Assembly: GCA_963787835.1 (NCBI GenBank)
Contig: CAWBEI010000002.1
Span: 448,001-512,000 of the forward strand
Source: Ignavibacteriota bacterium
Lineage (GTDB): Bacteria; Bacteroidota; Ignavibacteria; Palsa-1295
Length of the DNA: 64,000 nt
Direction: 5' to 3'
Shown here: positions 13,265 through 62,386 of the stretch, piece after piece
How the letters are laid out: every line of letters starts with the position of its first letter
Position numbering within the stretch: position 1 is the stretch's first letter
Notes under the pieces: generated by a model
Seen by the model: only the letters and a program-made list of their open reading frames with translations
What the model was told of the DNA's origin: nothing
Databases searched by the model: none
Translations under genes and position numbers: made by a program

Positions 13265-13294
13265 TTCATCTTTCATAATTCATACTTTATAATT
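13265..13294. repeat. Degenerate heptamer array (TTCATAA/TTCATAC type)
   Basis: TTCATCT TTCATAA TTCATAC TTTATAA. Confidence 0.6.
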
Positions 13295-32559: not shown

Positions 32560-32564
32560 GCCAT

Positions 32565-32751: not shown

Positions 32752-32759
32752 GCTCAAAA

Positions 32760-45251: not shown

Positions 45252-46358
45252 TTATTTTATAGCCAATAGCCCGGACATGGCACGCGCCACATATTCTACG
45301 AGCGGTGCAATGCGCCCATAGTCCATTCTCTTCGGCCCGATCAAGCCTATAATACCCCGCTCCCCGCCGATCTGGTACTTTGTGCTTATAAGGCTATAGC
45401 CCGTCATATTCTGTTCTTCCAGTTCACTACCGATGCGGATTGCGATCCCTCCAGTGGAAATAGAAGAATCATTTCCTGCCGCCCCTTCGAGTACATGGAT
45501 CACGACCTCTTGATTATCGATGAGTTCTATAATGCTTTGAAATTCTTCATCGCGAGTCAGATCCCGGCGCTGAAATTCCGGTTGAACGAAAATATTTTTT
45601 GCACCGCTGATCTTTACACGATCCGAACCACTCTCGTCGAACAGCCTTTCCGGTGCATCGATAAAAAGCCGGAGAATCGATCGATCATGCTCAGAAAGAT
45701 CGCTCATCCGCTCTCGAAAGGTTGCTTTTACTTCCCGAAAGCTGCGTCCGGCCAGCCGCTCGTTGAGCAAAAATCGGAGTTCGTCCAGCTTAGATTGAGC
45801 AAGCACGTTATCCGTTTCAAGCGTCACCGTTCTTACTCGTCCACTCGATGCCGCAAGGACCACAAGCAAACGGTTCGAGGAAAGCTGGGCGATCTCTACT
45901 CGTTCCAGTATTCCCTCATCCAATGCCGGAAGCAATGCAATCGAAAGTTGCTGCGAGAGCTTTGCAAGAATATCAGAGGACGCTTCCAAAACATCCTCTG
46001 CCGTGACAGCATCCGCAAGCGACCGTGCAACTGCTTTGCGATCTGCTGGTGTCACATGTTCCCGAGCCATCAGGTCGTTTACATAAAGCCGGTAACCTTT
46101 GTCCGTAGGCATTCGGCCTGCGCTTGTATGAGGATGATCGACATACCCCATATACTCGAGATCCGCCATGATATTCCTAGTGGAGGCATCGCTCAAACCT
46201 AACGAACTTACACGCGCAAGGTAACGAGAGCCGACCGGATTGGCTGTCAGAACATAATGACGTACGATCAACCGTAATATTTCTCGCTGGCGCTCGGTTA
46301 ATTCCGCACTTTGTGCTGTCACTACAGATTGATGTCGCTGTTTCGTGTCCTCCTTCAT
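45252..46358 (-). CDS. hrcA: Heat-inducible transcriptional repressor HrcA
   Basis: LTERQREIL, PVGSRYL, HPHTSAGRMPTDKGYRLYV, IGPKRMDY. Confidence 0.95.
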   Translation of the reverse strand: MKEDTKQRHQSVVTAQSAELTERQREILRLIVRHYVLTANPVGSRYLARVSSLGLSDASTRNIMADLEYMGYVDHPHTSAGRMPTDKGYRLYVNDLMAREHVTPADRKAVARSLADAVTAEDVLEASSDILAKLSQQLSIALLPALDEGILERVEIAQLSSNRLLVVLAASSGRVRTVTLETDNVLAQSKLDELRFLLNERLAGRSFREVKATFRERMSDLSEHDRSILRLFIDAPERLFDESGSDRVKISGAKNIFVQPEFQRRDLTRDEEFQSIIELIDNQEVVIHVLEGAAGNDSSISTGGIAIRIGSELEEQNMTGYSLISTKYQIGGERGIIGLIGPKRMDYGRIAPLVEYVARAMSGLLAIK

Positions 46359-46444
46359 ATCCTTGGCGAAGAACACGTTGGTTTACGAAGGGAGTTTCGT
46401 GAAGCGTATTAATGGTGCTATTCTGTAGCATTCGTTTAAATCGG

Positions 46445-46478
46445 GACTGCCCGCCGTGGATAACCACGGTGGGCAGTC
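46445..46478 (-). terminator. Strong hairpin downstream of giant gene 1
   Basis: GACTGCCCGCCGTGG ATAA CCACGGTGGGCAGTC. Confidence 0.7.
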
Positions 46479-46540
46479 GCTTGATTTCGGTTGGGATGTT
46501 TTTTGCTTCCCGTATGTCCGTCTTACCGAGCTTTCCCGTC

Positions 46541-49500
46541 TTACTGTTTTTCGATGGTGAGCTTGCTCGAGAGCGTGGCGCTGCGGCCGTCGGCTCCGGT
46601 GGCGGTCATCTCATAGAGATAGCTGCCGCTCGGTAGCGAGGTCAGGTCGAGCTTCACGTTCTGGGTGCCCGCCTCGAACGACTGGTTCGTCACCTCGCTG
46701 TTGACCACCTTGCCCGTCACGTCCATCACCCGCAGCGTTACCTGCGAGGCTTCCGGAAGCGTGAACGATACCTCCGTCACACCGGCCGAGGGATTCGGAT
46801 AGCTCTGGCCCAGTGTAAAGCCAAGCTGGCTTGCATCCGGACCCAGTTCCACCGTATTCGAGTACGTCTCCGCACCCGTCTCATCGACCGCCGCAATGCG
46901 GTACGTGTACGACTGCGAAGGATCCAGACCCGTGATCGAGGAGGCATAGTCCGTCTGATCCGCGACCGCCGTCACCGGATGCAGCACCGTCCAGCTGTTC
47001 TGGTTCTGCTGCTCCACATCGTAGCGTACCACGTTCGGCAAGCCTACCACATCCCACGTGATCGTCGCGGCATTACCGCTGACCCGCTGAATGCTCGCAC
47101 TCACATTGTCGATCGGTAGGATCGTACCATTGTGACTGCGGAAGAAGGCAAAGGCTGCTGCAAGCGTTCGTGTCGTACCGCTCGTCAATGCATCCTGTGC
47201 CGCCGTGCTCGGAGACGTCTGGTGCGGGTTCGCCCAGTCAAAGGCATAGAACACCGTGTTCACCAGGGGATCGTAATACGATACACCCGCTCCATTGTTC
47301 GGATTGCTGTACGAGTAGTTCGAGTACGTGTACGCATACCCGTTGACCTTCGGACCCACCGCAGGCGTCGTCAGGGATGGCATGATCACGTTCGGTGTCA
47401 GGCTCGAGGTCAGATCCGTCGAGCATTCCTCGCAGTCACTCCCGTTCGGATTGACCGGGATCGAAAGGCTGTCCGCAAACGTCCAGTACGCCGGCTGCTG
47501 GCCCACGATCCGGCCAATATACGAGGAACTCGTCGGGTAGTTCGCCACATACTGTGTGTGCATCGTCGATTGCATCCATTGCGTATCCGTCACCGGATTG
47601 TTCGACTGCACATACCCATTGTAGTAGGCAATGTGCTGGCCCGCGATCACAAGGCTCTTCTTCGCATAGCTCTGCCCTGCGCCCAGATACCGCGTGATCT
47701 CATCCGTCTCCTGCAGCGTCGGACCGCCCTGACCCGTCGACTGACCGGCAACCGGGGCAACGCCCGGATCGCCGCTCGACCACACGATCGTCCACCACGG
47801 CGTGTAATCGATGATCGTCGTGTTCGGAAGGCCCTTCGGAGCGTTACGGTCGATCGTGTCGAACGGTACCCCTAATCGGTTCAACGCCGCGATCACCGAA
47901 TCACGGTTCTGACGGCCATCCGAGGCCGCACCATTATAGGAAAGCAATACCGCATTCTGCTTCAACAGGATCGTAAACGTCTTCGTCTGCGAGTTGTTCG
48001 CGTCGTTCTGGTCGTTCGGGACGCTCACCGTTACCCGGAACACCCCCGTGCTGTTCGACGCCGTCAACGCCGGACCCTGGAACGCGACGCTCTTCGACTC
48101 GCCCACCTGCCACGTCAACGGGGCAGACGTGCCCGTATACACCGTCGTCCATACACCATTGACCGAACGCTGCACCGTCGCCGTGACCTTCTGGCTATAG
48201 ACGCCTACGCTCGATAGGTTCTTCACCACGCCCGTGATCCATAACGGACTCTCCGTCGTCACTAAGGACGTGTCGCTCGTCTGCGAGAACCCGCCCGGCT
48301 GTGAGATCTCTAAGACCGCAAGATCGTTCGTGAACTGGAACCCGTCCCATTCATCCGCCCCGATGTCCGGGCTCGGATTGTTCTGCGAACGAACGTCTCC
48401 GTCGAAATCATGAGCCTCCGACGACGTACCAAGCCACGCGCCGTTGTTCGAGGCCGGACTTTCGATGTACGTCAAGGCCGGTGGCATGTGCAACGAATCC
48501 ACTCCCATCGCTGGCGTACCGAACAACGGATCGCCCGATAACGAGTGGCTGTCCTGACCCACATACGTACGCCAGTCGTTCAAACGGCGGAAGTACAGGC
48601 TCTGGAATACCGTCCCATACCGTGCGTCGTACTCCGTCACCGAGTCGAAGACGTTCGTGCCACGCAAATCGAATACGTTATAGTCCGAACTGATCGAACT
48701 TGCATACGGACGAGGTACCTCTAAGTTGTAGTTCGTGTACGGACCGGTGCCCGTGTTCTGGAAAATGTTGTTCCAGATGAACGCGTGCTTCGCGTATTTG
48801 ATCGTGATGTTCGATGTCGCGTTGTTCGTCGAGATCGAGTTGTTGAACACCGAATCCTTGTCCGTCGAATACGGAACCGTGCCCGACGTCGAAGAGATCG
48901 TCGTCATCAGGATCGGGAACACCTTCCCCGCGCTCGTACGAAGGTCTAAGATCATGTTGTTCGTCAATCGGTTCTGCGTTACCGCCGGTAACGTCGATTT
49001 CACATTCGTCAGACCCGTGCTCGTGTACTGCCACGACGACTGCTGCAGCGCGATCCCATGCGTGTTGCCCGCTGCCGATGTCATGATACGGATCCGGTTC
49101 GCATCGATCCAGGCACCCGTCACGTTACCCGTGTCACCCGCCCACTGAGGGTTCGAAGGCGGGCCGATGTACGTGTTCATGTTCGGCTGTACAATGCCAT
49201 ACACATTCCACGTCGCTCCGCCGCCCTGCGGTACTACGTTCGCGTTCACGTTCGAGATCTCGTTGTGTGAGATCACGATCCCGGTCTCGCTGTTGAACTG
49301 GATGCCCGCGTACGATAATGGGTTCGACGACGTACCTACCGTGTTCCGCGTGATCACGTCATTGTAGTTGCGCCACGTCGTGTACGCACCCTTCACCGGA
49401 TCGTACGCATCGTGGTACCCGTGATCGTAGATCCCATACTTCGCATTGCCAAGCTCGCAGTTGTTGACCGTGATATTGCTCGTCGCAACCGTATCGTGGA

Positions 49501-52150
49501 TCCCGGATGAATACACGAAAAAGTTGTGCTCGTTGTAGATACGAACCGCCGAGCACGAGTCGTTCGCGAACATCCCGTTCCCGTGGATCACCAGATCCTT
49601 CAGCGTGATGTTGCTTGCACCGTATTCGATACCGAAGACCGCACCCGCCTTCGTCTCGTTGCTGACGATCGTCAAGCCGCGCTTCAAGGGCTCTGCCGTC
49701 ACCTTGTCCGGGGACGGAACCGTCGACGGGTTATAGCCCTCGAAGTTCATATAACCAGGGAAGTGGTCGCCCATGTAAAAACAGAATGGCTGTGAGCCGC
49801 TGAACGTGATCGTCGGATTTTGGCCCGGATATGGGATCCATGTTACCGTCGAACTCGCCGAAAGGCCGTTGATCTGGCCAAGGTCCACCGCGCCATACGG
49901 AGAGGCCACATCGGTGTTCCCGTTCTCCGTGTAGGACGCATCCGTCAGGATCATCCGTACGTTCGCTCCGATACCGCGGAACCGCATCGTGTCCACCGCC
50001 TGATGGATCGTCTGGAACTGGCGCCCTACGCCCACATAGTAATCGCCCTTCAAACGGTCGATGATCGAAAACTGCGTGCACGACGTGTCGTTCGTCTGGT
50101 TCTCGTCGCTGCCCGCGCTGCTGCTGAAGTCTGCGATCGCGCACAGCGTGTAGCATCCCGGCGGGATCGTCGCGATCGTGTGGTATGCACCCGCGTTCGC
50201 TGTCGTTGGAAACTTGAACAGCACCTGACCCTGGTCGATGTTCAAGGCATCTTCTACCGTATCCGACTGGAATGCCAGCAACCCATCCGAACAACGGCGG
50301 ATCTGGCAACGGATCTTGAAGCTGAACAGGTCCGATACACCCACCGACTGGAACAGCGCCGATGGCTGCCACGTCGTCAAATACGGCTTCTCTTCACCCG
50401 GCTGAGGGTTGAACACTCCCACCGAGGCCGCATCGTAAAGTGGAAGGATCGGCGTCGGAGATTTCGTCGTGTCGTCCGCACGCAGCTGATCGTTACCCAT
50501 GATCGCAATACCGAAGACCGTATCCACGCCCAGCGTCACCGGAGTCCACGTCGGGCTTGAAGGGAACGCCGTATCGTAATACGCGCCTCTACCCGGACCC
50601 TGACCGCTCGAGGAATAATCCGTCACCCCATCCGAGTTGCCACCCATTGGGCCGGAAGGCCAGTATGGGATCACGACCGTGTCACGGAAGACCACTTTGC
50701 CCGTCGCGTCGTGTACCGTTGCCGTCACCGGTACATTGTATTGCGTGTCCGTTCCAAGGTTACGGAAACGGATCGAGATCGGCGTCGCAATATCCACCTG
50801 AGTACGGGAACCCGCCGGAGGATTGATCACCGAGACCCCCTTGATATCGTTCGGTGGAGCGCACGTCCACTCATCCGTCGATTGGTTGTCCGATGGATCC
50901 TGATCTGCCGTCGGCTGCAGATTGAACACCGTCATCGTGTCCTCGTAAATACCGTAGCCCGTGCTCTGCGCTTCGCCGAACTGCGCCGGTTCGCCAGGTG
51001 CGAACGCCGGGAACGTGATCGTCGTCTGGCTGAACCCTGCCGGGATCTGCGAGCTGTTCAGCGTGATCGTCTGATTATACACCTGGCCTACGCCATACTC
51101 CGAGATCGTGAAGTTCACCTGGCACGACGTCGAGACCTGGGAACCCGAATTAGCAAGGATCGCCGTTGGGGTGAAATACGTATTGATCGCCTGTGGAGTT
51201 TCGCTGGCAGGATTGGTGATCGTACCGGCCGTCAGATTATATGGCCAAGCAATCGCGATGCGGTAACTGACCTGCGGGAGCAACGGCTCCGTCGCGTTGT
51301 CTTCCGCATATCCGTAATAATCGACGATCGGCTGATTCGATGGGTTGCCGCCGTTGCCGTTCCAGCCAATGGTCAGGAAGTCGCCGCCGCCCGATCCCTT
51401 AATGCCGGTCAGGCCGCTGTAAGCTTCAATAAGCCAGCCGCCATAGGAGTAATAGTAACCCCAGCTCGAATTAAATGTACCACTCTGTGGACCATAATTG
51501 AATTGGAAACTCGATATACCGCTTTCATAGACAACAGCCTGAAAATCTCCATTGAGGCCGGCCGAAGAGCCGTATTCATATGCATAAAGGCCGAGGGTCT
51601 GCACGACGAGCTCGCGGTTCGGGGCAGAGCCTAAAACGGCATAAGAGCAATTCGGAGCCGGACCATACGTGAGGAAGCCCTCGAACGGTGCTAGCTTATA
51701 GTTTGGATAATAGGACTCATAAGGAGCATAGTCATATTCACTCTCCAAAAAATCATACTCATAATCCTCGTACACATAGCCATACTCACTCAGATAAAAA
51801 AAATCGGCATCATAATCGTACGCATAGTTGGCGGTCCAAGTGGGGCTAAAGATGACAGAACCGTATGAATTAACTTCAAAATTGCCGGTGGTGGCGATCT
51901 GTTGGTTTTCAAACCGGAACGCGAACGGCACCGTATAACTCGGAGACATCTGATAATAATATCCCAGACCCGAGACCGCCGTTCCGCTGATCGCACTCCA
52001 GTTCGGGCCTGAACCCAAACCCTGAGCATCAGGCGTCGTGATCATGTGCACAAGATAGCTTCTCATAGAGTACGTTTGCGCACGCACGACCCCGGTGGAA
52101 ATCAAGCCGAACGCAACGAGCATGATTAGGAAAGCGTAGAGTTTTTTCAT
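46541..52150 (-). CDS. Giant T9SS-secreted surface protein, paralog 1 (Tyr-rich NIDO-like head, CARDB/Ig-like domains, beta-helix, Fn3-like domain, CTD)
   Basis: Signal peptide VRA-Q; VPFAFRF..NSYG..APF..LGSAPNRELVV head; NDIKGVSVINP and NDLAVLEISQP Ig-like starts; PDIGADE; CTD LGQSYPNP...SGSYLYEM. Confidence 0.9.
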   Translation of the reverse strand: MKKLYAFLIMLVAFGLISTGVVRAQTYSMRSYLVHMITTPDAQGLGSGPNWSAISGTAVSGLGYYYQMSPSYTVPFAFRFENQQIATTGNFEVNSYGSVIFSPTWTANYAYDYDADFFYLSEYGYVYEDYEYDFLESEYDYAPYESYYPNYKLAPFEGFLTYGPAPNCSYAVLGSAPNRELVVQTLGLYAYEYGSSAGLNGDFQAVVYESGISSFQFNYGPQSGTFNSSWGYYYSYGGWLIEAYSGLTGIKGSGGGDFLTIGWNGNGGNPSNQPIVDYYGYAEDNATEPLLPQVSYRIAIAWPYNLTAGTITNPASETPQAINTYFTPTAILANSGSQVSTSCQVNFTISEYGVGQVYNQTITLNSSQIPAGFSQTTITFPAFAPGEPAQFGEAQSTGYGIYEDTMTVFNLQPTADQDPSDNQSTDEWTCAPPNDIKGVSVINPPAGSRTQVDIATPISIRFRNLGTDTQYNVPVTATVHDATGKVVFRDTVVIPYWPSGPMGGNSDGVTDYSSSGQGPGRGAYYDTAFPSSPTWTPVTLGVDTVFGIAIMGNDQLRADDTTKSPTPILPLYDAASVGVFNPQPGEEKPYLTTWQPSALFQSVGVSDLFSFKIRCQIRRCSDGLLAFQSDTVEDALNIDQGQVLFKFPTTANAGAYHTIATIPPGCYTLCAIADFSSSAGSDENQTNDTSCTQFSIIDRLKGDYYVGVGRQFQTIHQAVDTMRFRGIGANVRMILTDASYTENGNTDVASPYGAVDLGQINGLSASSTVTWIPYPGQNPTITFSGSQPFCFYMGDHFPGYMNFEGYNPSTVPSPDKVTAEPLKRGLTIVSNETKAGAVFGIEYGASNITLKDLVIHGNGMFANDSCSAVRIYNEHNFFVYSSGIHDTVATSNITVNNCELGNAKYGIYDHGYHDAYDPVKGAYTTWRNYNDVITRNTVGTSSNPLSYAGIQFNSETGIVISHNEISNVNANVVPQGGGATWNVYGIVQPNMNTYIGPPSNPQWAGDTGNVTGAWIDANRIRIMTSAAGNTHGIALQQSSWQYTSTGLTNVKSTLPAVTQNRLTNNMILDLRTSAGKVFPILMTTISSTSGTVPYSTDKDSVFNNSISTNNATSNITIKYAKHAFIWNNIFQNTGTGPYTNYNLEVPRPYASSISSDYNVFDLRGTNVFDSVTEYDARYGTVFQSLYFRRLNDWRTYVGQDSHSLSGDPLFGTPAMGVDSLHMPPALTYIESPASNNGAWLGTSSEAHDFDGDVRSQNNPSPDIGADEWDGFQFTNDLAVLEISQPGGFSQTSDTSLVTTESPLWITGVVKNLSSVGVYSQKVTATVQRSVNGVWTTVYTGTSAPLTWQVGESKSVAFQGPALTASNSTGVFRVTVSVPNDQNDANNSQTKTFTILLKQNAVLLSYNGAASDGRQNRDSVIAALNRLGVPFDTIDRNAPKGLPNTTIIDYTPWWTIVWSSGDPGVAPVAGQSTGQGGPTLQETDEITRYLGAGQSYAKKSLVIAGQHIAYYNGYVQSNNPVTDTQWMQSTMHTQYVANYPTSSSYIGRIVGQQPAYWTFADSLSIPVNPNGSDCEECSTDLTSSLTPNVIMPSLTTPAVGPKVNGYAYTYSNYSYSNPNNGAGVSYYDPLVNTVFYAFDWANPHQTSPSTAAQDALTSGTTRTLAAAFAFFRSHNGTILPIDNVSASIQRVSGNAATITWDVVGLPNVVRYDVEQQNQNSWTVLHPVTAVADQTDYASSITGLDPSQSYTYRIAAVDETGAETYSNTVELGPDASQLGFTLGQSYPNPSAGVTEVSFTLPEASQVTLRVMDVTGKVVNSEVTNQSFEAGTQNVKLDLTSLPSGSYLYEMTATGADGRSATLSSKLTIEKQ

Positions 52151-52295
52151 AGACTTCAATGAATGGAAAAATAAGTGACTACAAATCGTTTTGCCCCAAA
52201 GGACGACCAGTTAAATAAAATAATACCTCAAGAATCGACCGGTTTTCCCCCAAGTATTTAACTCGACACGCCAGAACCACCGAAAGTTACATCCC
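52151..52295 (-). promoter_or_regulatory. Promoter and ~120-nt leader of giant gene 1
   Basis: TAACTTTCG (-7-like) at 52289-52281; leader blocks shared with copy 2. Confidence 0.5.
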
Positions 52296-52402
52296 GTTCT
52301 CAATTTTTTTGAAAATTTCTTAGAGAATCCTAAAACTAAGGCTTTGTCATATCTCCTTTGGCAACCCACAATTTTATATTGTATTTACTGCGTTTAAATT
52401 GG

Positions 52403-52436
52403 GACTGCCCGCCGTGGATAACCACGGTGGGCAGTC
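52403..52436 (-). terminator. Strong hairpin downstream of giant gene 2
   Basis: Identical to 46445-46478. Confidence 0.7.
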
Positions 52437-52498
52437 GCTTGATTTCGGTTGGGATGTTTTTTGCTTCCCGTATGTCCGTCTTACCGAGCTTTCCCGTC

Positions 52499-55400
52499 TT
52501 ACTGTTTTTCGATGGTGAGCTTGCTCGAGAGCGTGGCGCTGCGGCCGTCGGCTCCGGTGGCGGTCATCTCATAGAGATAGCTGCCGCTCGGTAGCGAGGT
52601 CAGGTCGAGCTTCACGTTCTGGGTGCCCGCCTCGAACGACTGGTTCGTCACCTCGCTGTTGACCACCTTGCCCGTCACGTCCATCACCCGCAGCGTTACC
52701 TGCGAGGCTTCCGGAAGCGTGAACGATACCTCCGTCACACCGGCCGAGGGATTCGGATAGCTCTGGCCCAGTGTAAAGCCAAGCTGGCTTGCATCCGGAC
52801 CCAGTTCCACCGTATTCGAGTACGTCTCCGCACCCGTCTCATCGACCGCCGCAATGCGGTACGTGTACGACTGCGAAGGATCCAGACCCGTGATCGAGGA
52901 GGCATAGTCCGTCTGATCCGCGACCGCCGTCACCGGATGCAGCACCGTCCAGCTGTTCTGGTTCTGCTGCTCCACATCGTAGCGTACCACGTTCGGCAAG
53001 CCTACCACATCCCACGTGATCGTCGCGGCATTACCGCTGACCCGCTGAATGCTCGCACTCACATTGTCGATCGGTAGGATCGTACCATTGTGACTGCGGA
53101 AGAAGGCAAAGGCTGCTGCAAGCGTTCGTGTCGTACCGCTCGTCAATGCATCCTGTGCCGCCGTGCTCGGAGACGTCTGGTGCGGGTTCGCCCAGTCAAA
53201 GGCATAGAACACCGTGTTCACCAGGGGATCGTAATACGATACACCCGCTCCATTGTTCGGATTGCTGTACGAGTAGTTCGAGTACGTGTACGCATACCCG
53301 TTGACCTTCGGACCCACCGCAGGCGTCGTCAGGGATGGCATGATCACGTTCGGTGTCAGGCTCGAGGTCAGATCCGTCGAGCATTCCTCGCAGTCACTCC
53401 CGTTCGGATTGACCGGGATCGAAAGGCTGTCCGCAAACGTCCAGTACGCCGGCTGCTGGCCCACGATCCGGCCAATATACGAGGAACTCGTCGGGTAGTT
53501 CGCCACATACTGTGTGTGCATCGTCGATTGCATCCATTGCGTATCCGTCACCGGATTGTTCGACTGCACATACCCATTGTAGTAGGCAATGTGCTGGCCC
53601 GCGATCACAAGGCTCTTCTTCGCATAGCTCTGCCCTGCGCCCAGATACCGCGTGATCTCATCCGTCTCCTGCAGCGTCGGACCGCCCTGACCCGTCGACT
53701 GACCGGCAACCGGGGCAACGCCCGGATCGCCGCTCGACCACACGATCGTCCACCACGGCGTGTAATCGATGATCGTCGTGTTCGGAAGGCCCTTCGGAGC
53801 GTTACGGTCGATCGTGTCGAACGGTACCCCTAATCGGTTCAACGCCGCGATCACCGAATCACGGTTCTGACGGCCATCCGAGGCCGCACCATTATAGGAA
53901 AGCAATACCGCATTCTGCTTCAACAGGATCGTAAACGTCTTCGTCTGCGAGTTGTTCGCGTCGTTCTGGTCGTTCGGGACGCTCACCGTTACCCGGAACA
54001 CCCCCGTGCTGTTCGACGCCGTCAACGCCGGACCCTGGAACGCGACGCTCTTCGACTCGCCCACCTGCCACGTCAACGGGGCAGACGTGCCCGTATACAC
54101 CGTCGTCCATACACCATTGACCGAACGCTGCACCGTCGCCGTGACCTTCTGGCTATAGACGCCTACGCTCGATAGGTTCTTCACCACGCCCGTGATCCAT
54201 AACGGACTCTCCGTCGTCACTAAGGACGTGTCGCTCGTCTGCGAGAACCCGCCCGGCTGTGAGATCTCTAAGACCGCAAGATCGTTCGTGAACTGGAACC
54301 CGTCCCATTCATCCGCCCCGATGTCCGGGCTCGGATTGTTCTGCGAACGAACGTCTCCGTCGAAATCATGAGCCTCCGACGACGTACCAAGCCACGCGCC
54401 GTTGTTCGAGGCCGGACTTTCGATGTACGTCAAGGCCGGTGGCATGTGCAACGAATCCACTCCCATCGCTGGCGTACCGAACAACGGATCGCCCGATAAC
54501 GAGTGGCTGTCCTGACCCACATACGTACGCCAGTCGTTCAAACGGCGGAAGTACAGGCTCTGGAATACCGTCCCATACCGTGCGTCGTACTCCGTCACCG
54601 AGTCGAAGACGTTCGTGCCACGCAAATCGAATACGTTATAGTCCGAACTGATCGAACTTGCATACGGACGAGGTACCTCTAAGTTGTAGTTCGTGTACGG
54701 ACCGGTGCCCGTGTTCTGGAAAATGTTGTTCCAGATGAACGCGTGCTTCGCGTATTTGATCGTGATGTTCGATGTCGCGTTGTTCGTCGAGATCGAGTTG
54801 TTGAACACCGAATCCTTGTCCGTCGAATACGGAACCGTGCCCGACGTCGAAGAGATCGTCGTCATCAGGATCGGGAACACCTTCCCCGCGCTCGTACGAA
54901 GGTCTAAGATCATGTTGTTCGTCAATCGGTTCTGCGTTACCGCCGGTAACGTCGATTTCACATTCGTCAGACCCGTGCTCGTGTACTGCCACGACGACTG
55001 CTGCAGCGCGATCCCATGCGTGTTGCCCGCTGCCGATGTCATGATACGGATCCGGTTCGCATCGATCCAGGCACCCGTCACGTTACCCGTGTCACCCGCC
55101 CACTGAGGGTTCGAAGGCGGGCCGATGTACGTGTTCATGTTCGGCTGTACAATGCCATACACATTCCACGTCGCTCCGCCGCCCTGCGGTACTACGTTCG
55201 CGTTCACGTTCGAGATCTCGTTGTGTGAGATCACGATCCCGGTCTCGCTGTTGAACTGGATGCCCGCGTACGATAATGGGTTCGACGACGTACCTACCGT
55301 GTTCCGCGTGATCACGTCATTGTAGTTGCGCCACGTCGTGTACGCACCCTTCACCGGATCGTACGCATCGTGGTACCCGTGATCGTAGATCCCATACTTC

Positions 55401-58159
55401 GCATTGCCAAGCTCGCAATTATTAACCACGAGATTGTTCATCGCTACGGTATCGCGAATACCCGAGCCATAGACATAGAAGTTGTGCTCGTTGTAGATAC
55501 GGACCGCCGAGCACGAGTCGTTCGCGAACATCCCGTTCCCGTGGATCACCAGATCCTTCAGCGTGATGTTGCTCGCACCGTATTCGATACCGAAGACCGC
55601 ACCCGCCTTCGTCTCGTTGCTGACGATCGTCAAGCCGCGCTTCAAGGGCTCGGCCGTCACCTTGTCCGGGGACGGAACCGTCGACGGGTTATAGCCCTCG
55701 AAGTTCATATAACCAGGGAAGTGGTCGCCCATGTAAAAACAGAATGGCTGTGAGCCGCTGAACGTGATCGTCGGATTTTGGCCCGGATATGGGATCCACG
55801 TCACCGTCGAACTCGCCGAAAGGCCGTTGATCTGGCCAAGGTCCACCGCGCCATACGGAGAGGCCACATCGGTGTTCCCGTTCTCCGTGTAGGACGCATC
55901 CGTCAGGATCATCCGTACGTTCGCTCCGATACCGCGGAACCGCATCGTGTCCACCGCCTGATGGATCGTCTGGAACTGGCGCCCTACGCCCACATAGTAA
56001 TCGCCCTTCAAACGGTCAATGATCGAAAACTGCGTGCACGACGTGTCGTTCGTCTGGTTCTCGTCGCTGCCCGCGCTGCTGCTGAAGTCTGCGATCGCGC
56101 ACAGCGTGTAGCATCCCGGCGGGATCGTCGCGATCGTGTGGTATGCACCCGCGTTCGCTGTCGTTGGAAACTTGAACAGCACCTGACCCTGGTCGATGTT
56201 CAAGGCATCTTCTACCGTATCCGACTGGAATGCCAGCAACCCATCCGAACAACGGCGGATCTGGCAACGGATCTTGAAGCTGAACAGGTCCGATACACCC
56301 ACCGACTGGAACAGCGCCGATGGCTGCCACGTCGTCAAATACGGCTTCTCTTCACCCGGCTGAGGGTTGAACACTCCCACCGAGGCCGCATCGTAAAGTG
56401 GAAGGATCGGCGTCGGAGATTTCGTCGTGTCGTCCGCACGCAGCTGATCGTTACCCATGATCGCAATACCGAAGACCGTATCCACGCCCAGCGTCACCGG
56501 AGTCCACGTCGGGCTTGAAGGGAACGCCGTATCGTAATACGCGCCTCTGCCCGGACCCTGACCGCTCGAGGAATAATCCGTCACCCCATCCGAGTTGCCA
56601 CCCATTGGGCCGGAAGGCCAGTAAGGGATCACGACCGTGTCACGGAAGACCACTTTGCCCGTCGCGTCGTGTACCGTTGCCGTCACCGGTACATTGTATT
56701 GCGTGTCCGTTCCAAGGTTACGGAAACGGATCGAGATCGGCGTAGCAATATCCACCTGGGTTCGGGAACCCGCCGGAGGATTGATCACCGAGACCCCCTT
56801 GATGTCGTTCGGTGGAGCGCACGTCCACTCATCCGTCGATTGGTTGTCTGCGGGATCCTGATCTGCCGTCGGCTGTAGATTGAACACCGTCATCGTGTCC
56901 TCGTAGATCCCATAGCCCGTGCTTTGGGCTTCGCCGAACTGCGCCGCCTGACCTGGCGCAAACTGCGGGAACGTGATCGTCGAATTGCTGAACGCCGCCG
57001 GGATCTGCGAGCTGTTCAGGGTGATCGTCTGATTATATACCTGGCCTACGCCATACTCCGAGATCGTGAAGTTCACCTGGCACGACGTTGAGACCTGCGA
57101 ACCCGAATTTGTAAGGATCGCCGTTGGGGTGAAGTTCGTATTGATCGCCTGTGGAGTTTCGCTGGCAGGATTGGTGATCGTACCAGCCGTCAGATCGTAC
57201 GGCCAAGCGATGAACACACGATAGCTCGATTGCGGGAGCAGAGGCTCCGTCGCGTTGTCTTCCGCTGCATAGCCATAGGCAAAACTGGTGTAGCCACTAT
57301 TAGAATAATTATTGCAGTATTGAACCAACGGTTGATTCGAAGGGCTGCCGCCGTTGCCGTTCCAGCCGATCGTCAGGTAATTACCGCCTGTGGATTTGAC
57401 GGCAGTGTAGCCCGAGTATGATTCGATCAGCCAGCCGCCATAGGAGTAATAATACCCCCAGCTTGAGTTCCACGTCCCGGTCATCGGACCATAATTGAAC
57501 TGGAAGTTCGAGATCCCTGACTCATAGACAACCGTCTGCCAGCTTCCAAAACATTGTGATAAGCCATAATAATAAGAGGGTACAGCATCGGCCTCTACGA
57601 CAAGCTCACGATTCGGAGCCGAGCCGAGAACCGTATAGAGCACGTTATAGCCAGAGCTGGGGCCATCTGTCAAAAACCCTTCGAAGGGGGCCAGCCTGTA
57701 ATTGCCGTAATAGGAGTACCCGTAGTTGTAATCCTCTTCGTTCTCATAGAGGCAGTATGGAATGTAGTCATACACGTACCCATATTCACTTAGAAAAAAC
57801 CAATCGTACCCACCGTAATCGTAGTTGGCAGTGCTGGGCCAGGTGGGGCTGAACACGACCGTGCCATAGTTGTTAAACCGGAACGTGTTTGTCGTCGCGA
57901 TCTGCGTGTTTAAGAACCGGAATGCAAACGGCACCTGATAGGCCGCCGACATTTGTTCGCCATCGTACTGCGATGACAATCCGCCGCTGGTGCCTGTGAC
58001 GGAATGCCAGTTCGAGCCGGAACCTAATCCCTGCGGATCAGGCGTATCGACCTTCCGGACGAAGTAGCTGGTCATCGTGTACGTTTGCGCCTGCGCAACC
58101 TCGGAGGAAATGATTCCGAGCGCGAAAAGCGCGAGAAGAAAAGCGTAGAGTTTTTTCAT
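52499..58159 (-). CDS. Giant T9SS-secreted surface protein, paralog 2
   Basis: Signal peptide AQA-Q; same architecture as paralog 1 with a divergent first ~320 aa. Confidence 0.9.
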   Translation of the reverse strand: MKKLYAFLLALFALGIISSEVAQAQTYTMTSYFVRKVDTPDPQGLGSGSNWHSVTGTSGGLSSQYDGEQMSAAYQVPFAFRFLNTQIATTNTFRFNNYGTVVFSPTWPSTANYDYGGYDWFFLSEYGYVYDYIPYCLYENEEDYNYGYSYYGNYRLAPFEGFLTDGPSSGYNVLYTVLGSAPNRELVVEADAVPSYYYGLSQCFGSWQTVVYESGISNFQFNYGPMTGTWNSSWGYYYSYGGWLIESYSGYTAVKSTGGNYLTIGWNGNGGSPSNQPLVQYCNNYSNSGYTSFAYGYAAEDNATEPLLPQSSYRVFIAWPYDLTAGTITNPASETPQAINTNFTPTAILTNSGSQVSTSCQVNFTISEYGVGQVYNQTITLNSSQIPAAFSNSTITFPQFAPGQAAQFGEAQSTGYGIYEDTMTVFNLQPTADQDPADNQSTDEWTCAPPNDIKGVSVINPPAGSRTQVDIATPISIRFRNLGTDTQYNVPVTATVHDATGKVVFRDTVVIPYWPSGPMGGNSDGVTDYSSSGQGPGRGAYYDTAFPSSPTWTPVTLGVDTVFGIAIMGNDQLRADDTTKSPTPILPLYDAASVGVFNPQPGEEKPYLTTWQPSALFQSVGVSDLFSFKIRCQIRRCSDGLLAFQSDTVEDALNIDQGQVLFKFPTTANAGAYHTIATIPPGCYTLCAIADFSSSAGSDENQTNDTSCTQFSIIDRLKGDYYVGVGRQFQTIHQAVDTMRFRGIGANVRMILTDASYTENGNTDVASPYGAVDLGQINGLSASSTVTWIPYPGQNPTITFSGSQPFCFYMGDHFPGYMNFEGYNPSTVPSPDKVTAEPLKRGLTIVSNETKAGAVFGIEYGASNITLKDLVIHGNGMFANDSCSAVRIYNEHNFYVYGSGIRDTVAMNNLVVNNCELGNAKYGIYDHGYHDAYDPVKGAYTTWRNYNDVITRNTVGTSSNPLSYAGIQFNSETGIVISHNEISNVNANVVPQGGGATWNVYGIVQPNMNTYIGPPSNPQWAGDTGNVTGAWIDANRIRIMTSAAGNTHGIALQQSSWQYTSTGLTNVKSTLPAVTQNRLTNNMILDLRTSAGKVFPILMTTISSTSGTVPYSTDKDSVFNNSISTNNATSNITIKYAKHAFIWNNIFQNTGTGPYTNYNLEVPRPYASSISSDYNVFDLRGTNVFDSVTEYDARYGTVFQSLYFRRLNDWRTYVGQDSHSLSGDPLFGTPAMGVDSLHMPPALTYIESPASNNGAWLGTSSEAHDFDGDVRSQNNPSPDIGADEWDGFQFTNDLAVLEISQPGGFSQTSDTSLVTTESPLWITGVVKNLSSVGVYSQKVTATVQRSVNGVWTTVYTGTSAPLTWQVGESKSVAFQGPALTASNSTGVFRVTVSVPNDQNDANNSQTKTFTILLKQNAVLLSYNGAASDGRQNRDSVIAALNRLGVPFDTIDRNAPKGLPNTTIIDYTPWWTIVWSSGDPGVAPVAGQSTGQGGPTLQETDEITRYLGAGQSYAKKSLVIAGQHIAYYNGYVQSNNPVTDTQWMQSTMHTQYVANYPTSSSYIGRIVGQQPAYWTFADSLSIPVNPNGSDCEECSTDLTSSLTPNVIMPSLTTPAVGPKVNGYAYTYSNYSYSNPNNGAGVSYYDPLVNTVFYAFDWANPHQTSPSTAAQDALTSGTTRTLAAAFAFFRSHNGTILPIDNVSASIQRVSGNAATITWDVVGLPNVVRYDVEQQNQNSWTVLHPVTAVADQTDYASSITGLDPSQSYTYRIAAVDETGAETYSNTVELGPDASQLGFTLGQSYPNPSAGVTEVSFTLPEASQVTLRVMDVTGKVVNSEVTNQSFEAGTQNVKLDLTSLPSGSYLYEMTATGADGRSATLSSKLTIEKQ

Positions 58160-58299
58160 AGACTTCTAATGAATGGAAAATAAGTGACTACAATTCTGTT
58201 GCCCGAAGGATGGCCGGTTATTCAAAACAATACCAAAAGAACCGGAGGGTTTCCCCCAGGTATTTACTCGACACGCCAAAACCACCGAAAGTTACATCC
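58160..58299 (-). promoter_or_regulatory. Promoter and leader of giant gene 2
   Basis: TAACTTTCG at 58294-58286; TGGCGTGTCGAGT, AATAC..GGGGGAAA and TGTAGTCACTTATTTT shared with copy 1. Confidence 0.5.
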
Positions 58300-58366: not shown

Positions 58367-61300
58367 CTACCGGTCAATAATAAAAGGAGTGGCAACCCGC
58401 CATCCAAGCGAGCTCACCTCAAGCATATACCGGCCAGAACTCAAAGCGTCCATCGGTATATTAATGGTATAAGTGCCACGGGTAAAGCTCTGAGCCAGAA
58501 TGTTTGTGATCAATTTCCCCGTCATATCATAGAGTCCGGCTTCAACGAACCCGTCGTTGCCAAGTTGAAGACCGAAACTGGCGGACTCCGAAGCCGGATC
58601 TGGCGTGACTGGTCCTATCGCGTAGTTGCCACCAGGCACGAATTGCCCATTCAATCCAGTGCAATCCGTCACCACAACGCTTCCACGGGTTACCTCAATA
58701 TTTACTGAAGTATCGGTCGTAAGTTTGAGCCCGATCGCAGAGGATGCTCGCGGGCCGAGCAGCGTCAGCCACGAAATGGCTTCTATAAAACCTGGGTTGC
58801 TGAAATCGATCGTTTCAGAAAAAGCAACGGAATCCTGCAAAACGGAATGCGCAGGGCTTGTAAACCCACTGATAAAAGCAACAACGGATGGATCGTAGGT
58901 AACAGCGACACTTGCCGGATATTGGCCTTTCAGCGATGATGAATCAAGACGGATCGTTGTGACAACAGTATCGCCTGCACGCGCCGCCGCATTAGAAATA
59001 GTGAAATGTGCCCAGAGACTTCCCTCTTTGAACCCTGTTCCACGAAGTGCCAATTTGAATGGCTGACCGATATTCGGATAGAGCGTCGCTGTATCGATCT
59101 CTGTGCCGGAGTCCGATGGACAAAAACGAAACTTCACTTCTGCCGATCCGAAAGATGGAACCAGAATCGGCATTGAAGAAGCAGGTTGAAACGCTGAACT
59201 CTTCCAGGCAATGGAGTCGATCGATACAGAGGGCCCACACGGGTTCCCGATGAGCGAGGAATCTTCGCCGCAATCCGGCACGAGAACGGAATCGAAGTCA
59301 ATACTTTCTGCGGCCAGACCGCTATCAATTCCTTTTCCGGATAGAATAATATCAATAGTAGAATCGCAGCCGGCATCACCCAAGATAAGTTGGACAGTGT
59401 CCAACATTTCGACGGTATCCGACGGCTCCGATGGGGTAAACGAAAATCGTAATGAGGAAATCTGGCCAGGAAGCATCCGGCTCACAGTATCCAGGATGGC
59501 GAACCGTCCTCCTGAATTGAGATTAGAAATCGAAACGGCAAGCGTGTCAAGCCCGAGATTGACCAAGCTATCGCCGGCCATCACACTATCGCTGATGCAG
59601 ACAAAATGAAATGGAACGACCGAATCGAAATGAACCTGTGCGCCCACCACTCGATACGAAAGGATCGTAGAAAGAATAGTATCGGAAAGCTGATAGAGGA
59701 TCGTATCGGTAAATCGCCCAGTGGAATCGGGAACCCATGAAATTTGCACAGGATAACGCTCGTTCGGCTGGAGTATCACATCGATGCTATCGTGTTGGGG
59801 AGGCTCTTTACGTTGCAATGTTTGGAGCGTGATGGTGTCATTCCCTAAGTTTGAGATAGTATCGGTAAAGGTGATGGTGTGTCCTAAGCAATTCGGCCCA
59901 AGATCATGTGCTCCAAGCGACGATGCAAGACGACTCACTCCTACACCTGCTAATTCGATCGAATCCTGACGGTCATCGAGCGCTTGCGTTTGTCGAACAT
60001 CGCCCGAATCCGTTGGGCAAAATGTAAGGATCAGCATTCTTTTCTGCGAAGGTGCAATTGCGGTATCAGGCGGATCGAGCCTCATAGAAAAAGGTGGAGT
60101 GTTCCACGAACTACGATCAAGGTAAAGCGTATCCGCTCCGGCGGAAAGAAGAGACACGGTGTCACTCTTGCACTGCCCGATCGGTACATTCCCAAAGTTG
60201 ACATTCGATGGGGAGATCACGAGGGAATCCTGCCTTACAAGTCCTGTTCCAAAGAGGGTCATAACTTTGGTTGAATCGGTTGGATCGTTAGAAAGGAATG
60301 TGATAGCGGCCACATCAGAAGCTGCAGAATCCGGGCAGAATTCTACCTGAAGTGTATCCGACTGGGATGGAGGGATCCGAAGCGCGGTATCGGGAACCAG
60401 TGAAAACCCGGAAGGGCCGGAGATGGAACCTTTGCCAATCGAGAGCGGTGCTTCCCCTTCATTCCGGATGACCAGCGCAAGTGTTTTGCAGCGGCCAACG
60501 CGCACGGTTCCAAAATCCAGTGTATCCTGAACAACAAGGAATGGCGATGCCGAATGGGAAATGATCGCCATGCTGACATCAGACACCAGCCAGCCCGGTT
60601 CATAGGTGAAGTGCATTGGATCGGATGATGGCTGGTTTACTTCAACAAACGCGACCACATAGAGCAAGGAGTCATGTAAAAGTGGTAACCATTTTGCCCA
60701 ATTCCCGGCCGGAGCTCGAACGGTGTCAACCCACTCCCAATCCGTGTGTTGCGTTCTATAGAATATCCTAATGGTATCGAGCGTATTTGTGAGATCCTGA
60801 GCGGTTCCCGTTACAAGCACAGAACCGTTCGAATTCACAATGGTCGGCGTGGGCACGACAGCGATGCCCTCAGTCCAGACCGGCGATAGTTGTTGAGCCG
60901 GAGTCATGTTCGAAGCACCATCTATACGTACGCGCCCAAGCCCACCAAGCCCACCAGCAAACCCAGATGAATCTATGCCCGGTTGACCTGCATTTCCACC
61001 ATCGACATTAATACTTGTAGAAGAACCACGAATGCCTTTTGGACTTGCCAGATAGATCGCACCACCTGATCCGCCGCCGCCGCCCGCAGCAATTTCTATG
61101 CCCGAAGTGCCTGAATCTCCTCGCGCGCTGAACGTTGAAGAAATTGCGACTATCGAATCGAAAGAAACCAGTTCGATCGCACCACCACCACCACCGCCCG
61201 AACCACCTAACGTACCATCGCCAAGATCGACCGAATTTCCCGCACCGCCGCCGGAACCTCCCGCAAGCGGCACGAGAAATCTTCCACCATTTACTTGACC

Positions 61301-62386
61301 GCCATTCGCCCCGTTCCCAAATTGCTGATCAAAACCACCAATGCCCGCAGTACCAAATCCCCCACCTCCGCCGCCGTATTCAATGAACGGATTAACATCC
61401 TCTCCTCCGCCGGAACCGCCACCAAAACCGCCAGATGACGATGGCGATGAACCCAAACTTGCCACACCGCTCATTCCATAGGGCGCACCGGTACCACCAC
61501 CACCACCCTGATCATCCGGATTACTTTGCCCTCCCACGACACCGGTCGCAGCGCCTCCTCCGGATGCGCCAAGCGTATCGAACCCCTCAGAAGCGGAACC
61601 GGAATTCCCAAGTGAATCGCTCGGGCAACTTCCTCCGCCAGTGAAACCTATTCCGCCGGCACCGCCCCAACCATGTCCACCCCCACCGCCACCGGGGCCC
61701 CCGTTGATACCTTCGGCATCGACGGAGACCGTCGAATTCGAAAGGCGAACCGGTCCTTTGGAAAGAAGCACAACCGGAAGGAGTCTTGGGTTGCTCGGGA
61801 ACGTATCAGGGTTAATTGTTGAAAAAAAGATATGTGCGTTCGTAACGATGAGCGAATCAACCAATAAGGTATTGCTTCCCGAGAGCTGGCCAAATCCATC
61901 ACCGATGGTGGTATCCTGTGTGATGGGGCCTAAGTGTTGCAGCGAATCAATATAAAAATTTACCGTGTCGGACTGCCCCAATAGCGGGCTAAATACAAAA
62001 AATGGCACTGACCCAAACGAGGCGCCGGGTACAATAAAGAGGGGGATCTGAAGCACCCTCCCATTCCAGGTAACGATGGTTGGTCCGACGATCACACGAT
62101 CGGTGTCCGCAGCATTTAATAGAACAAAGCGTACCGAGGAATCGAGTGCATCATATCCAAACGGACGGAAGTCGCTCCCGCGCGCAAGAAGTTCCACAAC
62201 TACATTCATTCCCGGCGCGGCACGGTCCGGACGAATCGTTACTATATGACCAACCTGAGCCTGTGCGGGAAACGCGAAAGACAGCGCGAGAATCAATAAC
62301 AACAAATAACCACTAACGAATGATGGATGAAGGAATTTTTCCCCCCATTCACCATTCGCCATTCGTAATTCGTAATTCCTTTTCAT
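58367..62386 (-). CDS. T9SS-secreted protein with a Gly-rich region, ASH/choice-of-anchor-D Ig-like repeats and a cohesin-like domain
   Basis: Signal peptide AQA-Q; many GGGGG runs; repeats LDFGTV..C..N.G...L...FCP; CTD VTPDPA...SSGRYML. Confidence 0.85.
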   Translation of the reverse strand: MKRNYELRMANGEWGEKFLHPSFVSGYLLLLILALSFAFPAQAQVGHIVTIRPDRAAPGMNVVVELLARGSDFRPFGYDALDSSVRFVLLNAADTDRVIVGPTIVTWNGRVLQIPLFIVPGASFGSVPFFVFSPLLGQSDTVNFYIDSLQHLGPITQDTTIGDGFGQLSGSNTLLVDSLIVTNAHIFFSTINPDTFPSNPRLLPVVLLSKGPVRLSNSTVSVDAEGINGGPGGGGGGHGWGGAGGIGFTGGGSCPSDSLGNSGSASEGFDTLGASGGGAATGVVGGQSNPDDQGGGGGTGAPYGMSGVASLGSSPSSSGGFGGGSGGGEDVNPFIEYGGGGGGFGTAGIGGFDQQFGNGANGGQVNGGRFLVPLAGGSGGGAGNSVDLGDGTLGGSGGGGGGAIELVSFDSIVAISSTFSARGDSGTSGIEIAAGGGGGSGGAIYLASPKGIRGSSTSINVDGGNAGQPGIDSSGFAGGLGGLGRVRIDGASNMTPAQQLSPVWTEGIAVVPTPTIVNSNGSVLVTGTAQDLTNTLDTIRIFYRTQHTDWEWVDTVRAPAGNWAKWLPLLHDSLLYVVAFVEVNQPSSDPMHFTYEPGWLVSDVSMAIISHSASPFLVVQDTLDFGTVRVGRCKTLALVIRNEGEAPLSIGKGSISGPSGFSLVPDTALRIPPSQSDTLQVEFCPDSAASDVAAITFLSNDPTDSTKVMTLFGTGLVRQDSLVISPSNVNFGNVPIGQCKSDTVSLLSAGADTLYLDRSSWNTPPFSMRLDPPDTAIAPSQKRMLILTFCPTDSGDVRQTQALDDRQDSIELAGVGVSRLASSLGAHDLGPNCLGHTITFTDTISNLGNDTITLQTLQRKEPPQHDSIDVILQPNERYPVQISWVPDSTGRFTDTILYQLSDTILSTILSYRVVGAQVHFDSVVPFHFVCISDSVMAGDSLVNLGLDTLAVSISNLNSGGRFAILDTVSRMLPGQISSLRFSFTPSEPSDTVEMLDTVQLILGDAGCDSTIDIILSGKGIDSGLAAESIDFDSVLVPDCGEDSSLIGNPCGPSVSIDSIAWKSSAFQPASSMPILVPSFGSAEVKFRFCPSDSGTEIDTATLYPNIGQPFKLALRGTGFKEGSLWAHFTISNAAARAGDTVVTTIRLDSSSLKGQYPASVAVTYDPSVVAFISGFTSPAHSVLQDSVAFSETIDFSNPGFIEAISWLTLLGPRASSAIGLKLTTDTSVNIEVTRGSVVVTDCTGLNGQFVPGGNYAIGPVTPDPASESASFGLQLGNDGFVEAGLYDMTGKLITNILAQSFTRGTYTINIPMDALSSGRYMLEVSSLGWRVATPFIIDR
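62346..62378. repeat. Heptamer array inside the 5' end of the 58367-62386 ORF
   Basis: CATTCAC CATTCGC CATTCGT AATTCGT AATTC. Confidence 0.8.

What the first reader, a model, noticed from the sequence alone, without database searches (positions are those of the whole stretch)
46433..58299. Tandem giant surface proteins with a constant stalk and a variable head
Seen: two complete units (promoter, leader, ~5.6-kb gene, hairpin) at a 5958-bp offset. By eye about 3 kb (46443-49459 versus 52401-55417), including non-coding DNA, is identical, and ten alternative-frame ORFs repeat exactly. Synonymous differences then increase toward the 5' end, and the first ~300 aa diverge strongly with indels. Inference: gene conversion or unequal crossover homogenises the stalk and secretion signal while the distal domain diversifies, giving an adhesin or receptor repertoire in which crossover in the constant part swaps heads.
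Basis: partly seen in the sequence, partly recalled or inferred. Interest (0 to 1): 0.75.

Follow-up and report, generated by a model that had tools for sequence, protein, structure and literature searches.

The report
Twin surface proteins, one shared stalk
Two neighbouring genes for a very large, likely surface-displayed protein of a soil bacterium share an identical back half but keep old, different front ends, most likely because gene conversion keeps copying the stalk while selection preserves two heads, a known process that recurs in several related genomes.

Summary
Confirmed: two complete genes (1,869 and 1,886 aa) at offset 5,958, identical over 3,017 nt through the terminator. Short-read contigs carry both copies' variants and no variant in the identical part, so a polishing artefact is unlikely. 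Divergence is stepped, not smooth. The heads are old (synonymous sites saturated) and show pN far below pS, so they are kept different rather than rapidly diversifying. The protein is an uncharacterised type IX secretion cargo largely confined to one Kapabacteria-like family: NIDO-like head, three CARDB-type Ig domains, beta-helix, Ig, alpha/beta domain, FN3, sorting signal. Five of 15 genus genomes have two copies. Two species share the same four flanking genes, yet bodies are 96-99% alike within one genome and 73-78% between them: concerted evolution. Heads do not track bodies across species, and one genome carries a non-homologous head. Both copies have an ECF-sigma-type promoter motif. With two copies and no silent cassettes this is no within-genome repertoire. 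It parallels Helicobacter babA/babB and homA/homB. The scan noted a similar pair on other DNA (e1-4999186). New member of a known kind.

The parts
52499..58159 (-). Copy B gene, 1,886 aa; upstream copy, in the position that single-copy relatives use (after the ASH-domain gene)
46541..52150 (-). Copy A gene, 1,869 aa from ATG 52150; downstream copy, followed by hrcA-grpE-dnaJ
   Evidence: P0001 is 1,869 aa
58085..58159 (-). Signal peptide of B (aa 1-25, judged by eye; no predictor run)
   Evidence: sequence
57200..58084 (-). Head of B (aa 26-320): beta-sandwich, NIDO-like by indirect evidence, 13.6% Tyr, variable loops
51242..52075 (-). Head of A (aa 26-303): same fold, 66-67% identical to head B, nearest to the head of another species' protein (P0009)
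56000..57199 (-). Three CARDB-type Ig domains of B (aa 321-720); A/B divergence falls to near zero across the first one
   Evidence: 3idu Z 12.1, rmsd 2.3, 107 aligned
54290..55999 (-). Right-handed beta-helix of B (about aa 721-1290), pectate-lyase-like fold
   Evidence: 2pyg Z 24.5, rmsd 2.8, 328 aligned; PfbA adhesin Z 22.9
52502..54289 (-). Ig-like domain, alpha/beta domain, FN3 (aa 1703-1785) and type A T9SS sorting domain (aa 1801-1868) of B
46443..49459 (.). 3,017-nt tract identical to 52401-55417
52401..55417 (.). 3,017-nt tract identical to 46443-49459
49460..49520 (-). Island of old divergence in a variable loop of the beta-helix (partner 55418-55478); both forms occur in short-read contigs
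46445..46478 (-). Hairpin after copy A (15 pairs), same as 52403-52436 after copy B; likely terminator
52265..52291 (-). TGTAAC-N16-GTGTC promoter-like motif of copy A, predicted ECF sigma site
58270..58296 (-). TGTAAC-N16-GTGTC promoter-like motif of copy B

Best explanation
The two genes are an old duplicate of a family-wide type IX secretion cargo protein, likely an abundant cell-surface protein, whose shared 3' half is most likely kept identical by repeated gene conversion while selection likely blocks conversion across the distal head so that two different binding tips stay on one stalk. Shown: the identity, its mosaic edges, the old and purifying divergence of the heads, the same profile in other two-copy genomes, and head trees that disagree with body trees. 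Inferred from known T9SS biology: Sec export, SprA secretion, removal of the sorting domain and anchoring by the new C-terminus, which would leave the N-terminal head farthest from the cell. Inferred: both copies are transcribed from the same ECF sigma promoter type, so the cell would display both heads at once rather than switch; new heads likely arrive by recombination with DNA of other lineages or older paralogues, using the conserved signal-peptide region and first Ig domain as homology arms. The ligand (glycan, mineral or other cell; or the head as phage or predator target) is untested. Confidence is about 0.8 for the evolutionary mechanism and about 0.5 for a structural or adhesive surface role.
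For: G001 (one contig) holds two copies 1.5 Mb apart and inverted, 93.7% identical over 5,818 nt, head 74% and body 96-99% in amino acids. G001 and G012 have copies beside the same four genes (urocanase, citrate synthase upstream; hrcA, MscS downstream), so that duplication predates their split, yet bodies are 73-78% identical between the species while the two G012 tails are 100% identical over 116 nt. G010's two 5' halves, one with a non-homologous head (14% identity), end in the same 107 nt that open one assembled body, and its two 3' ends are 98% identical. In G000, G001 and G003 pS is lower in the signal peptide (0.39, 0.06, 0.26), peaks in the head (0.66-0.95) and falls to 0.06 or less in the body: the peak of divergence that PMC3924837 describes as selection resisting conversion (passages). 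Head A groups with P0009 (99/96) and head B with G014 and P0002 (96/94); A+B as one clade is rejected, p-AU 4.7e-5, while their bodies are sisters (100). Pairwise head identity barely follows body identity (Spearman 0.06-0.28) while body segments follow each other (0.49-0.77), 19 sequences. Sorting domain over cut-off, SprA and three C25 (PorU-type) genes in the genome. Codon adaptation ranks 44 and 49 of 2,053 ORFs. Promoter motif upstream of 21 of 25 family copies and 8 of 2,111 G000 ORFs, two of which are ECF sigma genes.
Against: No listed read or contig spans both copies, and runs X1-X4 may come from the assembly's own source. G012, G010 and G003 are fragmented, so their copy pairing is reconstructed from contig ends. 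Once heads are about 30% diverged, recombination is blocked without any selection, so the peak need not be adaptive today. In G001 and G003 the two heads are sisters in the tree, so foreign origin of a head is not general. Eight of 15 genus genomes show only one copy, so two heads are dispensable. The G+C excess at third positions is small in single-copy G014 (0.593 against 0.585 for dnaJ), so the codon signal in G000 may partly reflect conversion or lineage and not expression. No function is shown by a shared fold.
Confidence: 0.7

Rival explanations
1. One-off recent event: the 3' part was duplicated recently and joined to a head captured from another lineage, with no lasting conversion.
For: Head A is closer to another species' head (70%) than to head B (67%); the pair is tandem, which one integration event could produce.
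Against: At least four divergence levels in one gene (0, pS 0.035, 0.24, saturated) plus an internal island; 24 synonymous changes expected in the identical tract at the neighbouring rate, none seen; shared flanks in G001 and G012 with species-specific bodies. A capture may still have started the pair.
Confidence: 0.14
2. A dedicated variation system in which crossover in the constant part swaps heads within cells to vary the surface.
For: Flanks of the two copies are exchanged between G001 and the G012 assembly; L073 has the G001 arrangement; non-homologous heads exist in the family.
Against: Two copies only; both carry the promoter motif, and head and promoter travel together, so a crossover in identical DNA changes no protein; no recombinase among the flanking genes I annotated; no chimeric joint other than the expected A/B cross-mapping; the G012 swap may be a mis-join across a collapsed repeat.
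Confidence: 0.06
3. Functional rival: the protein is a secreted polysaccharide-degrading enzyme (beta-helix lyase or hydrolase) and the heads are substrate-binding modules.
For: Best fold matches of the beta-helix are alginate epimerases, lyases and tailspikes (Z 20-24.5); Tyr-rich heads suit glycan binding.
Against: Sequence identity to those enzymes is 7-18%; the non-catalytic adhesin PfbA scores within 2 Z units; no Pfam or NCBIfam enzyme family hits; conserved position between envelope and chaperone genes, not in a sugar-use cluster. I did not test for catalytic residues.
Confidence: 0.2
4. Assembly or polishing artefact: reads of one copy overwrote the other.
For: The assembly has faults elsewhere (15-kb palindrome at the start of C2, a high-G+C end); all four runs read G at 56018 where copy B has A.
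Against: Short-read contigs show A-type and B-type forms wherever the copies differ, including the 61-nt island, and no other letter in the identical tract (pieces of 838, 1,836 and 1,018 nt with 0 differences on copy A); the same polarity recurs in independent genomes.
Confidence: 0.03
5. RNA-templated (cDNA) conversion starting at the transcript's 3' end.
For: Identity ends at the far side of the hairpin in G000 and G001 and decays toward the 5' end.
Against: In G012 identity ends 4 nt after the stop codon and in G010 just before it, with different hairpins; divergence drops again at the 5' end.
Confidence: 0.03

Closest known systems
Helicobacter pylori homA/homB and babA/babB adhesin paralogues (PMC2795765, passages read)
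   Same: Two loci; 3' segment under concerted evolution (paralogues of one strain cluster), 5' segment divergent; attributed to gene conversion; surface proteins.
   Different: Those are about 2-kb outer-membrane proteins of a host pathogen compared among strains; here a 5.6-kb T9SS cargo of a free-living soil lineage, the pattern repeats across species and independent duplications, and one genome carries a non-homologous head.
Porphyromonas gingivalis gingipains and HagA (PMC5266723, passages read)
   Same: T9SS cargo with identical repeats shared between genes that break assemblies; N-terminal variants not linked to the rest; mosaic unrelated to strain phylogeny.
   Different: Proteases with cleaved adhesin domains; no sequence relation found here; variation linked to the host.
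Yeast FLO/EPA/ALS adhesins (PMC3512402, passages read)
   Same: N-terminal binding head on a stalk; ectopic recombination makes chimaeras.
   Different: Eukaryotic, many copies, tandem-repeat stalks, function shown by experiment.
Long-lasting concerted evolution in prokaryotes (PMC6053082, passages read) and divergence peaks under conversion (PMC3924837)
   Same: Recurrent conversion across species; local peak of divergence where selection favours difference.
   Different: The 26 genes there are mostly members of core complexes (tuf, amo, flagellin); the term 'surface' does not occur in its main text.
Tannerella forsythia S-layer proteins TfsA/TfsB (PMC12398890, passage read)
   Same: Two large T9SS-secreted proteins covering the cell.
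   Different: No homology found; lattice formation and abundance untested here.
Giant1-5 surface proteins of Apilactobacillus kunkeei (PMC12863079, passages read)
   Same: Adjacent giant surface genes with a beta-solenoid, diversified by recombination.
   Different: Gram-positive, five genes, recombination mostly between positional homologues of different strains.

Membership tests
T9SS type A cargo | C-terminal sorting domain over curated cut-off | tested here: met
   PF18962 44 bits (cut-off 27), TIGR04183 37.9 (23)
T9SS type A cargo | N-terminal Sec signal peptide | tested here: inconclusive
   Typical by eye (MKK, hydrophobic core, AxA); no predictor run
T9SS type A cargo | Secretion machinery in the genome | tested here: met
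   SprA_N E 1e-43; 3 Peptidase_C25 genes over cut-off; other components not searched
Segmental concerted evolution (babA/babB type) | 3' segment: paralogues of one genome closer than orthologues at the same loci | tested here: met
   G001 bodies 96-99% alike, G001 versus G012 73-78%, shared flanks; A/B sisters in body tree
Segmental concerted evolution (babA/babB type) | 5' segment evolves apart from the paralogue | tested here: met
   A+B head clade rejected, p-AU 4.7e-5; in G001 and G003 heads are diverged but still sisters
Segmental concerted evolution (babA/babB type) | Conversion observed in living cells | not testable with these tools
   Uncultured organism; only contigs available
Cassette-type antigenic variation (vlsE, pilE/pilS, sap; features recalled) | Several silent or promoterless donor copies | tested here: not met
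   2 full-length copies and no head fragments in G000; both with promoter motif
Positively selected variable domain | dN above dS in the head | tested here: not met
   pN 0.235, pS 0.76 for A/B; same direction in G001 and G003. Pairwise averages cannot exclude selection at single loop sites
NIDO domain (PF06119) | Match to the family model | tested here: inconclusive
   0 of 17 heads hit directly; head profile matches P0062 at 655-719, inside its NIDO hit 612-719; 3 of 17 hits scanned carry a NIDO match; Atlas row 0.94 with NIDO in 14% of members, recognition score under the tool's threshold
S-layer protein | Most abundant surface protein forming a lattice | not testable with these tools
   Only codon bias; no RNA holder listed
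Beta-helix polysaccharide lyase or hydrolase | Conserved catalytic residues in the groove | not tested
   Fold match only

The most novel reading that the evidence does not exclude
This family-wide protein is the main surface coat of an uncultured soil lineage and works as a fixed chassis with an exchangeable, antibody-like Tyr-rich tip: heads, including wholly unrelated ones, circulate between species, duplication lets a cell carry two tips under one ECF sigma factor, conversion keeps the chassis uniform so both forms co-assemble, and the identical bodies double as hinges for chromosome inversion.
Probability: 0.2. Interest if true: 0.65.

Novelty: new member of a known kind. Interest (0 to 1): 0.42.

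Why it matters
The mechanism is known, mostly from host pathogens. The value here is a clean, repeated case in a free-living uncultured lineage: several independent duplications give the same profile of a converted body and a protected head, which points to the head as the part under ecological selection and makes it a defined target for binding assays. It also describes an unannotated, family-wide 200-kDa secreted protein and a candidate ECF sigma regulon. Practically, such identical bodies break short-read assemblies, so copy number of this gene is probably under-counted in public genomes.

Tried and rejected
Foldseek on both multi-domain models gave only generic Ig-array matches with TM-scores under 0.25. 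The head had no rows in the VIA search, which the Ig domains filled; the head was not folded alone, so its fold match is open. No PDB sequence match for the head profile. No Pfam or NCBIfam family for head, beta-helix or alpha/beta domain. The G010 alternative head shows no similarity to the internal alpha/beta domain by BLASTP; an Atlas look-up for it did not complete. No RNA holder listed, so expression is untested. A loose contig end at 52345 in X3 matches another place of the genome (C2:220098) at low depth and was set aside as a likely chimaera. A sigma-70 consensus scan was run only over 46300-46700 and found the hairpin. The G012 contig C256 hit is another T9SS protein, not a copy. The 354-nt, 95% overlap of two G021 contig ends may be strain variation and was not counted as a second copy. 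The metagenome scan (24 loci) showed no further locus with two copies inside one contig. Eight literature searches listed no paper on this protein family or on T9SS cargo of this lineage; the library lacks most subscription journals and supplements were not opened.
Full report
OBSERVATION. The window lies on contig C2 of a 3.57-Mb, 7-contig genome. Two minus-strand genes, B (52499-58159, 1,886 aa) and A (46541-52150, 1,869 aa), sit between an ASH-domain gene and hrcA-grpE-dnaJ. At offset 5,958, 46443-49459 equals 52401-55417 over 3,017 nt, through the hairpin after the stop. No third copy or head fragment was found by blastn or tblastn in the genome; other hits are sorting domains only. Codon-level comparison (copy A numbering): signal peptide pS 0.39; head aa 24-300, 182 of 274 residues identical, pS 0.76 (saturated), pN 0.235; aa 301-440 pS 0.24, pN 0.037; aa 441-870, 430 of 430 identical with 11 synonymous changes; aa 871-900, 23 of 30 identical, pS 0.66; the rest identical. 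The profile is a mosaic with a peak in the head, and the head is under purifying selection on average: 77 of 89 framework columns but 105 of 186 variable columns are shared.

ARTEFACT? Five public runs hold the stretch. Contigs of X1-X4 show A-type and B-type forms where the copies differ, including the 61-nt island, and no other letter inside the identical tract. These four runs are one study and may be the assembly's source; no listed piece spans both genes. X5, from a second study, holds a relative about 90% identical (164 differences in 1,693 nt, 270 in 2,819): its hrcA-side contig has depth 8.8, its body contigs 18-19, and the pieces break up near the head boundary. That fits two collapsed copies in a diverged lineage, but the tool warns that contig depth is no copy number, so it is a hint only.

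ORGANISM AND RANGE. Relatives fetched are titled Ignavibacteriota or Ignavibacteriae (one 'palsa_1295') and Candidatus Kapaibacterium, and P0017 is named Candidatus Kapabacteria; placement in the Kapabacteria branch of the Bacteroidota relatives follows from these titles and from recall. The beta-helix region matches 25 of 35 genomes of the order at E 1e-40; among 16 genomes of other families only 3 had weak hits. ASH gene upstream and hrcA downstream is the commonest setting.

PROTEIN. AlphaFold2 models (mean pLDDT 83.7 and 76.7) give a beta-sandwich head, three CARDB-type Ig domains (3idu Z 12.1), a pectate-lyase-like beta-helix (Z up to 24.5, identities 7-18%, adhesin PfbA among the top rows), an Ig-like domain, an alpha/beta domain, FN3 and a type A sorting domain. 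The head has a conserved framework with long variable loops and 13.6% tyrosine. It has no direct family hit, but its profile finds 835 proteins, many large and with several copies of the module, and in P0062 the match lies inside a Pfam NIDO hit; NIDO-like is therefore a lead, not a membership. SprA and three C25 genes are present and 87 ORFs resemble the sorting domain. By the T9SS pathway (PMC12398890, passages) the protein would be anchored by its C-terminus with the head outermost; this is inferred. Codon adaptation ranks 44 and 49 of 2,053 ORFs (12 reference genes, 58 high-G+C or suspect ORFs dropped), suggesting high expression, with the caveat that single-copy G014 shows little such excess.

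REGULATION. TGT(A/C)AC-N15-17-GTGTC lies upstream of 21 of 25 family copies examined and of 8 of 2,111 G000 ORFs. Two of the eight are ECF sigma genes (14 sigma-like ORFs), one of them 1.5 kb beyond the window's right end in the same gene cluster, where two relatives keep the motif (not found in two other loci, one of them cut). Self-regulation by ECF sigma factors is recalled knowledge. Both copies therefore look expressible; neither is a silent cassette.

OTHER GENOMES. Of 15 genus genomes, 5 show two copies (G000, G001, G003, G010, G012), 8 show one (two of them in pieces) and 2 incomplete ones none. G001 is one contig with copies 1.5 Mb apart and inverted: head 74%, body 96-99% in amino acids, identity running past the hairpin; each copy has a one-base frameshift, probably read error. 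G012 has copies beside the same four genes, so the duplication is older than the split, yet bodies are 73-78% identical between the species and the two G012 tails are identical over 116 nt. That is the standard test for concerted evolution. The G012 assembly pairs the flanks the other way round from G001 and L073: a real inversion through the copies or a mis-join. G010 has one ordinary and one non-homologous head; both halves end in the same 107 nt that begin a single assembled body, and its two 3' ends are 98% identical. G003 has two 5' ends converging to a 119-nt identical run at a contig end. The peak profile repeats in G001 and G003.

TREES. Head tree (32 of 39 homologous heads, 7 distant ones left out for time; 21 non-homologous or fragmentary rows excluded; LG+G4): A with P0009 (99/96), B with G014 and P0002 (96/94); A+B rejected, p-AU 4.7e-5. 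Body tree (aa 455-930, 41 of 56 rows, quick search): A and B sisters, P0009 with the G001 copies. G001's two heads and G003's two heads are sisters, so these duplications are separate from that in G000. Across 19 proteins head identity follows body identity poorly (Spearman 0.06-0.28 against 0.49-0.77 among body segments; kin are not independent, so no p-value). Heads thus move among bodies over evolutionary time; transfer and sorting of old paralogues cannot be told apart, and no donor is claimed.

MECHANISM. Best reading: homologous recombination between the copies repeatedly overwrites the body; tracts reach the head from both sides but rarely fix there, first because two tips are favoured and now also because 30% divergence blocks pairing. 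This matches the divergence-peak signature in PMC3924837 (passages). A crossover in identical DNA changes no protein, since promoter and head travel together; in a tandem pair it would delete or amplify a unit, in an inverted pair invert the chromosome. RNA-templated conversion was considered because identity ends at the hairpin in two genomes, but it ends at the stop codon in two others.

COMPARISON AND VERDICT. The pattern works like H. pylori homA/homB and babA/babB (PMC2795765, passages; lead taken from e1-4999186) and like gingipain domain mosaics (PMC5266723). It fails the tests for cassette variation and for positive selection on average. The protein family and its promoter motif were not found in eight literature searches. 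Observation confirmed, interpretation partly supported, new member of a known kind, interest 0.42.

Noticed in passing
window 13260-13303, 32525-32568, 32724-32767: Short intergenic repeat built on TTCATAATTCATA; 40 matches of this 13-mer and 17 of a 23-nt form genome-wide. Nature unknown.
   Followed up: partly
L062 3497-4144 (G000 C2:513496-514143), just beyond the window: ECF sigma gene heading the cluster sigma - two unknown genes - OmpA - ASH-domain gene - B - A - hrcA; carries the same promoter motif as A and B, as do a second ECF gene (C6:73123) and other secreted-type genes.
   Followed up: partly
L065 (G000 C2:1430176-1435597): Another tandem pair of T9SS cargo genes whose 3' 331 nt are 85% identical while an upstream part is 67%; the first has the same promoter motif.
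   Followed up: no
P0029, P0025, P0022, P0030: A clade of family members with alpha/beta or other heads; by eye P0029 and P0025 carry a head-like module inserted in the internal alpha/beta domain. P0029 and P0030 list the same longest contig length (131,393), perhaps another tandem pair; not verified.
   Followed up: partly
P0015 and P0018: Identity rises from 50% in the head to 98% at the C-terminus, the same gradient; whether they come from one genome is unknown.
   Followed up: no
window 56018: All four runs read G where copy B has A (the A-copy letter); assembly error or dropped variant.
   Followed up: no
G000 C2 1-15231 and C2 beyond about 1.84 Mb; C6 end; C4 start: A 15-kb palindrome and high-G+C segments that look foreign or mis-assembled; no ORF with the EF-Tu motif other than an IF2-sized one was picked up.
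   Followed up: no
L035 7583-13435 (G006): The family gene and its neighbours are full of frameshifts, probably read errors of that assembly.
   Followed up: no
window 58367-62386: Upstream neighbour: 1,339-aa protein with a glycine-rich N-terminal part, ASH/HYDIN Ig domains and a weak sorting domain; in G001, G012, G003 and G004 it lies away from the family gene.
   Followed up: partly
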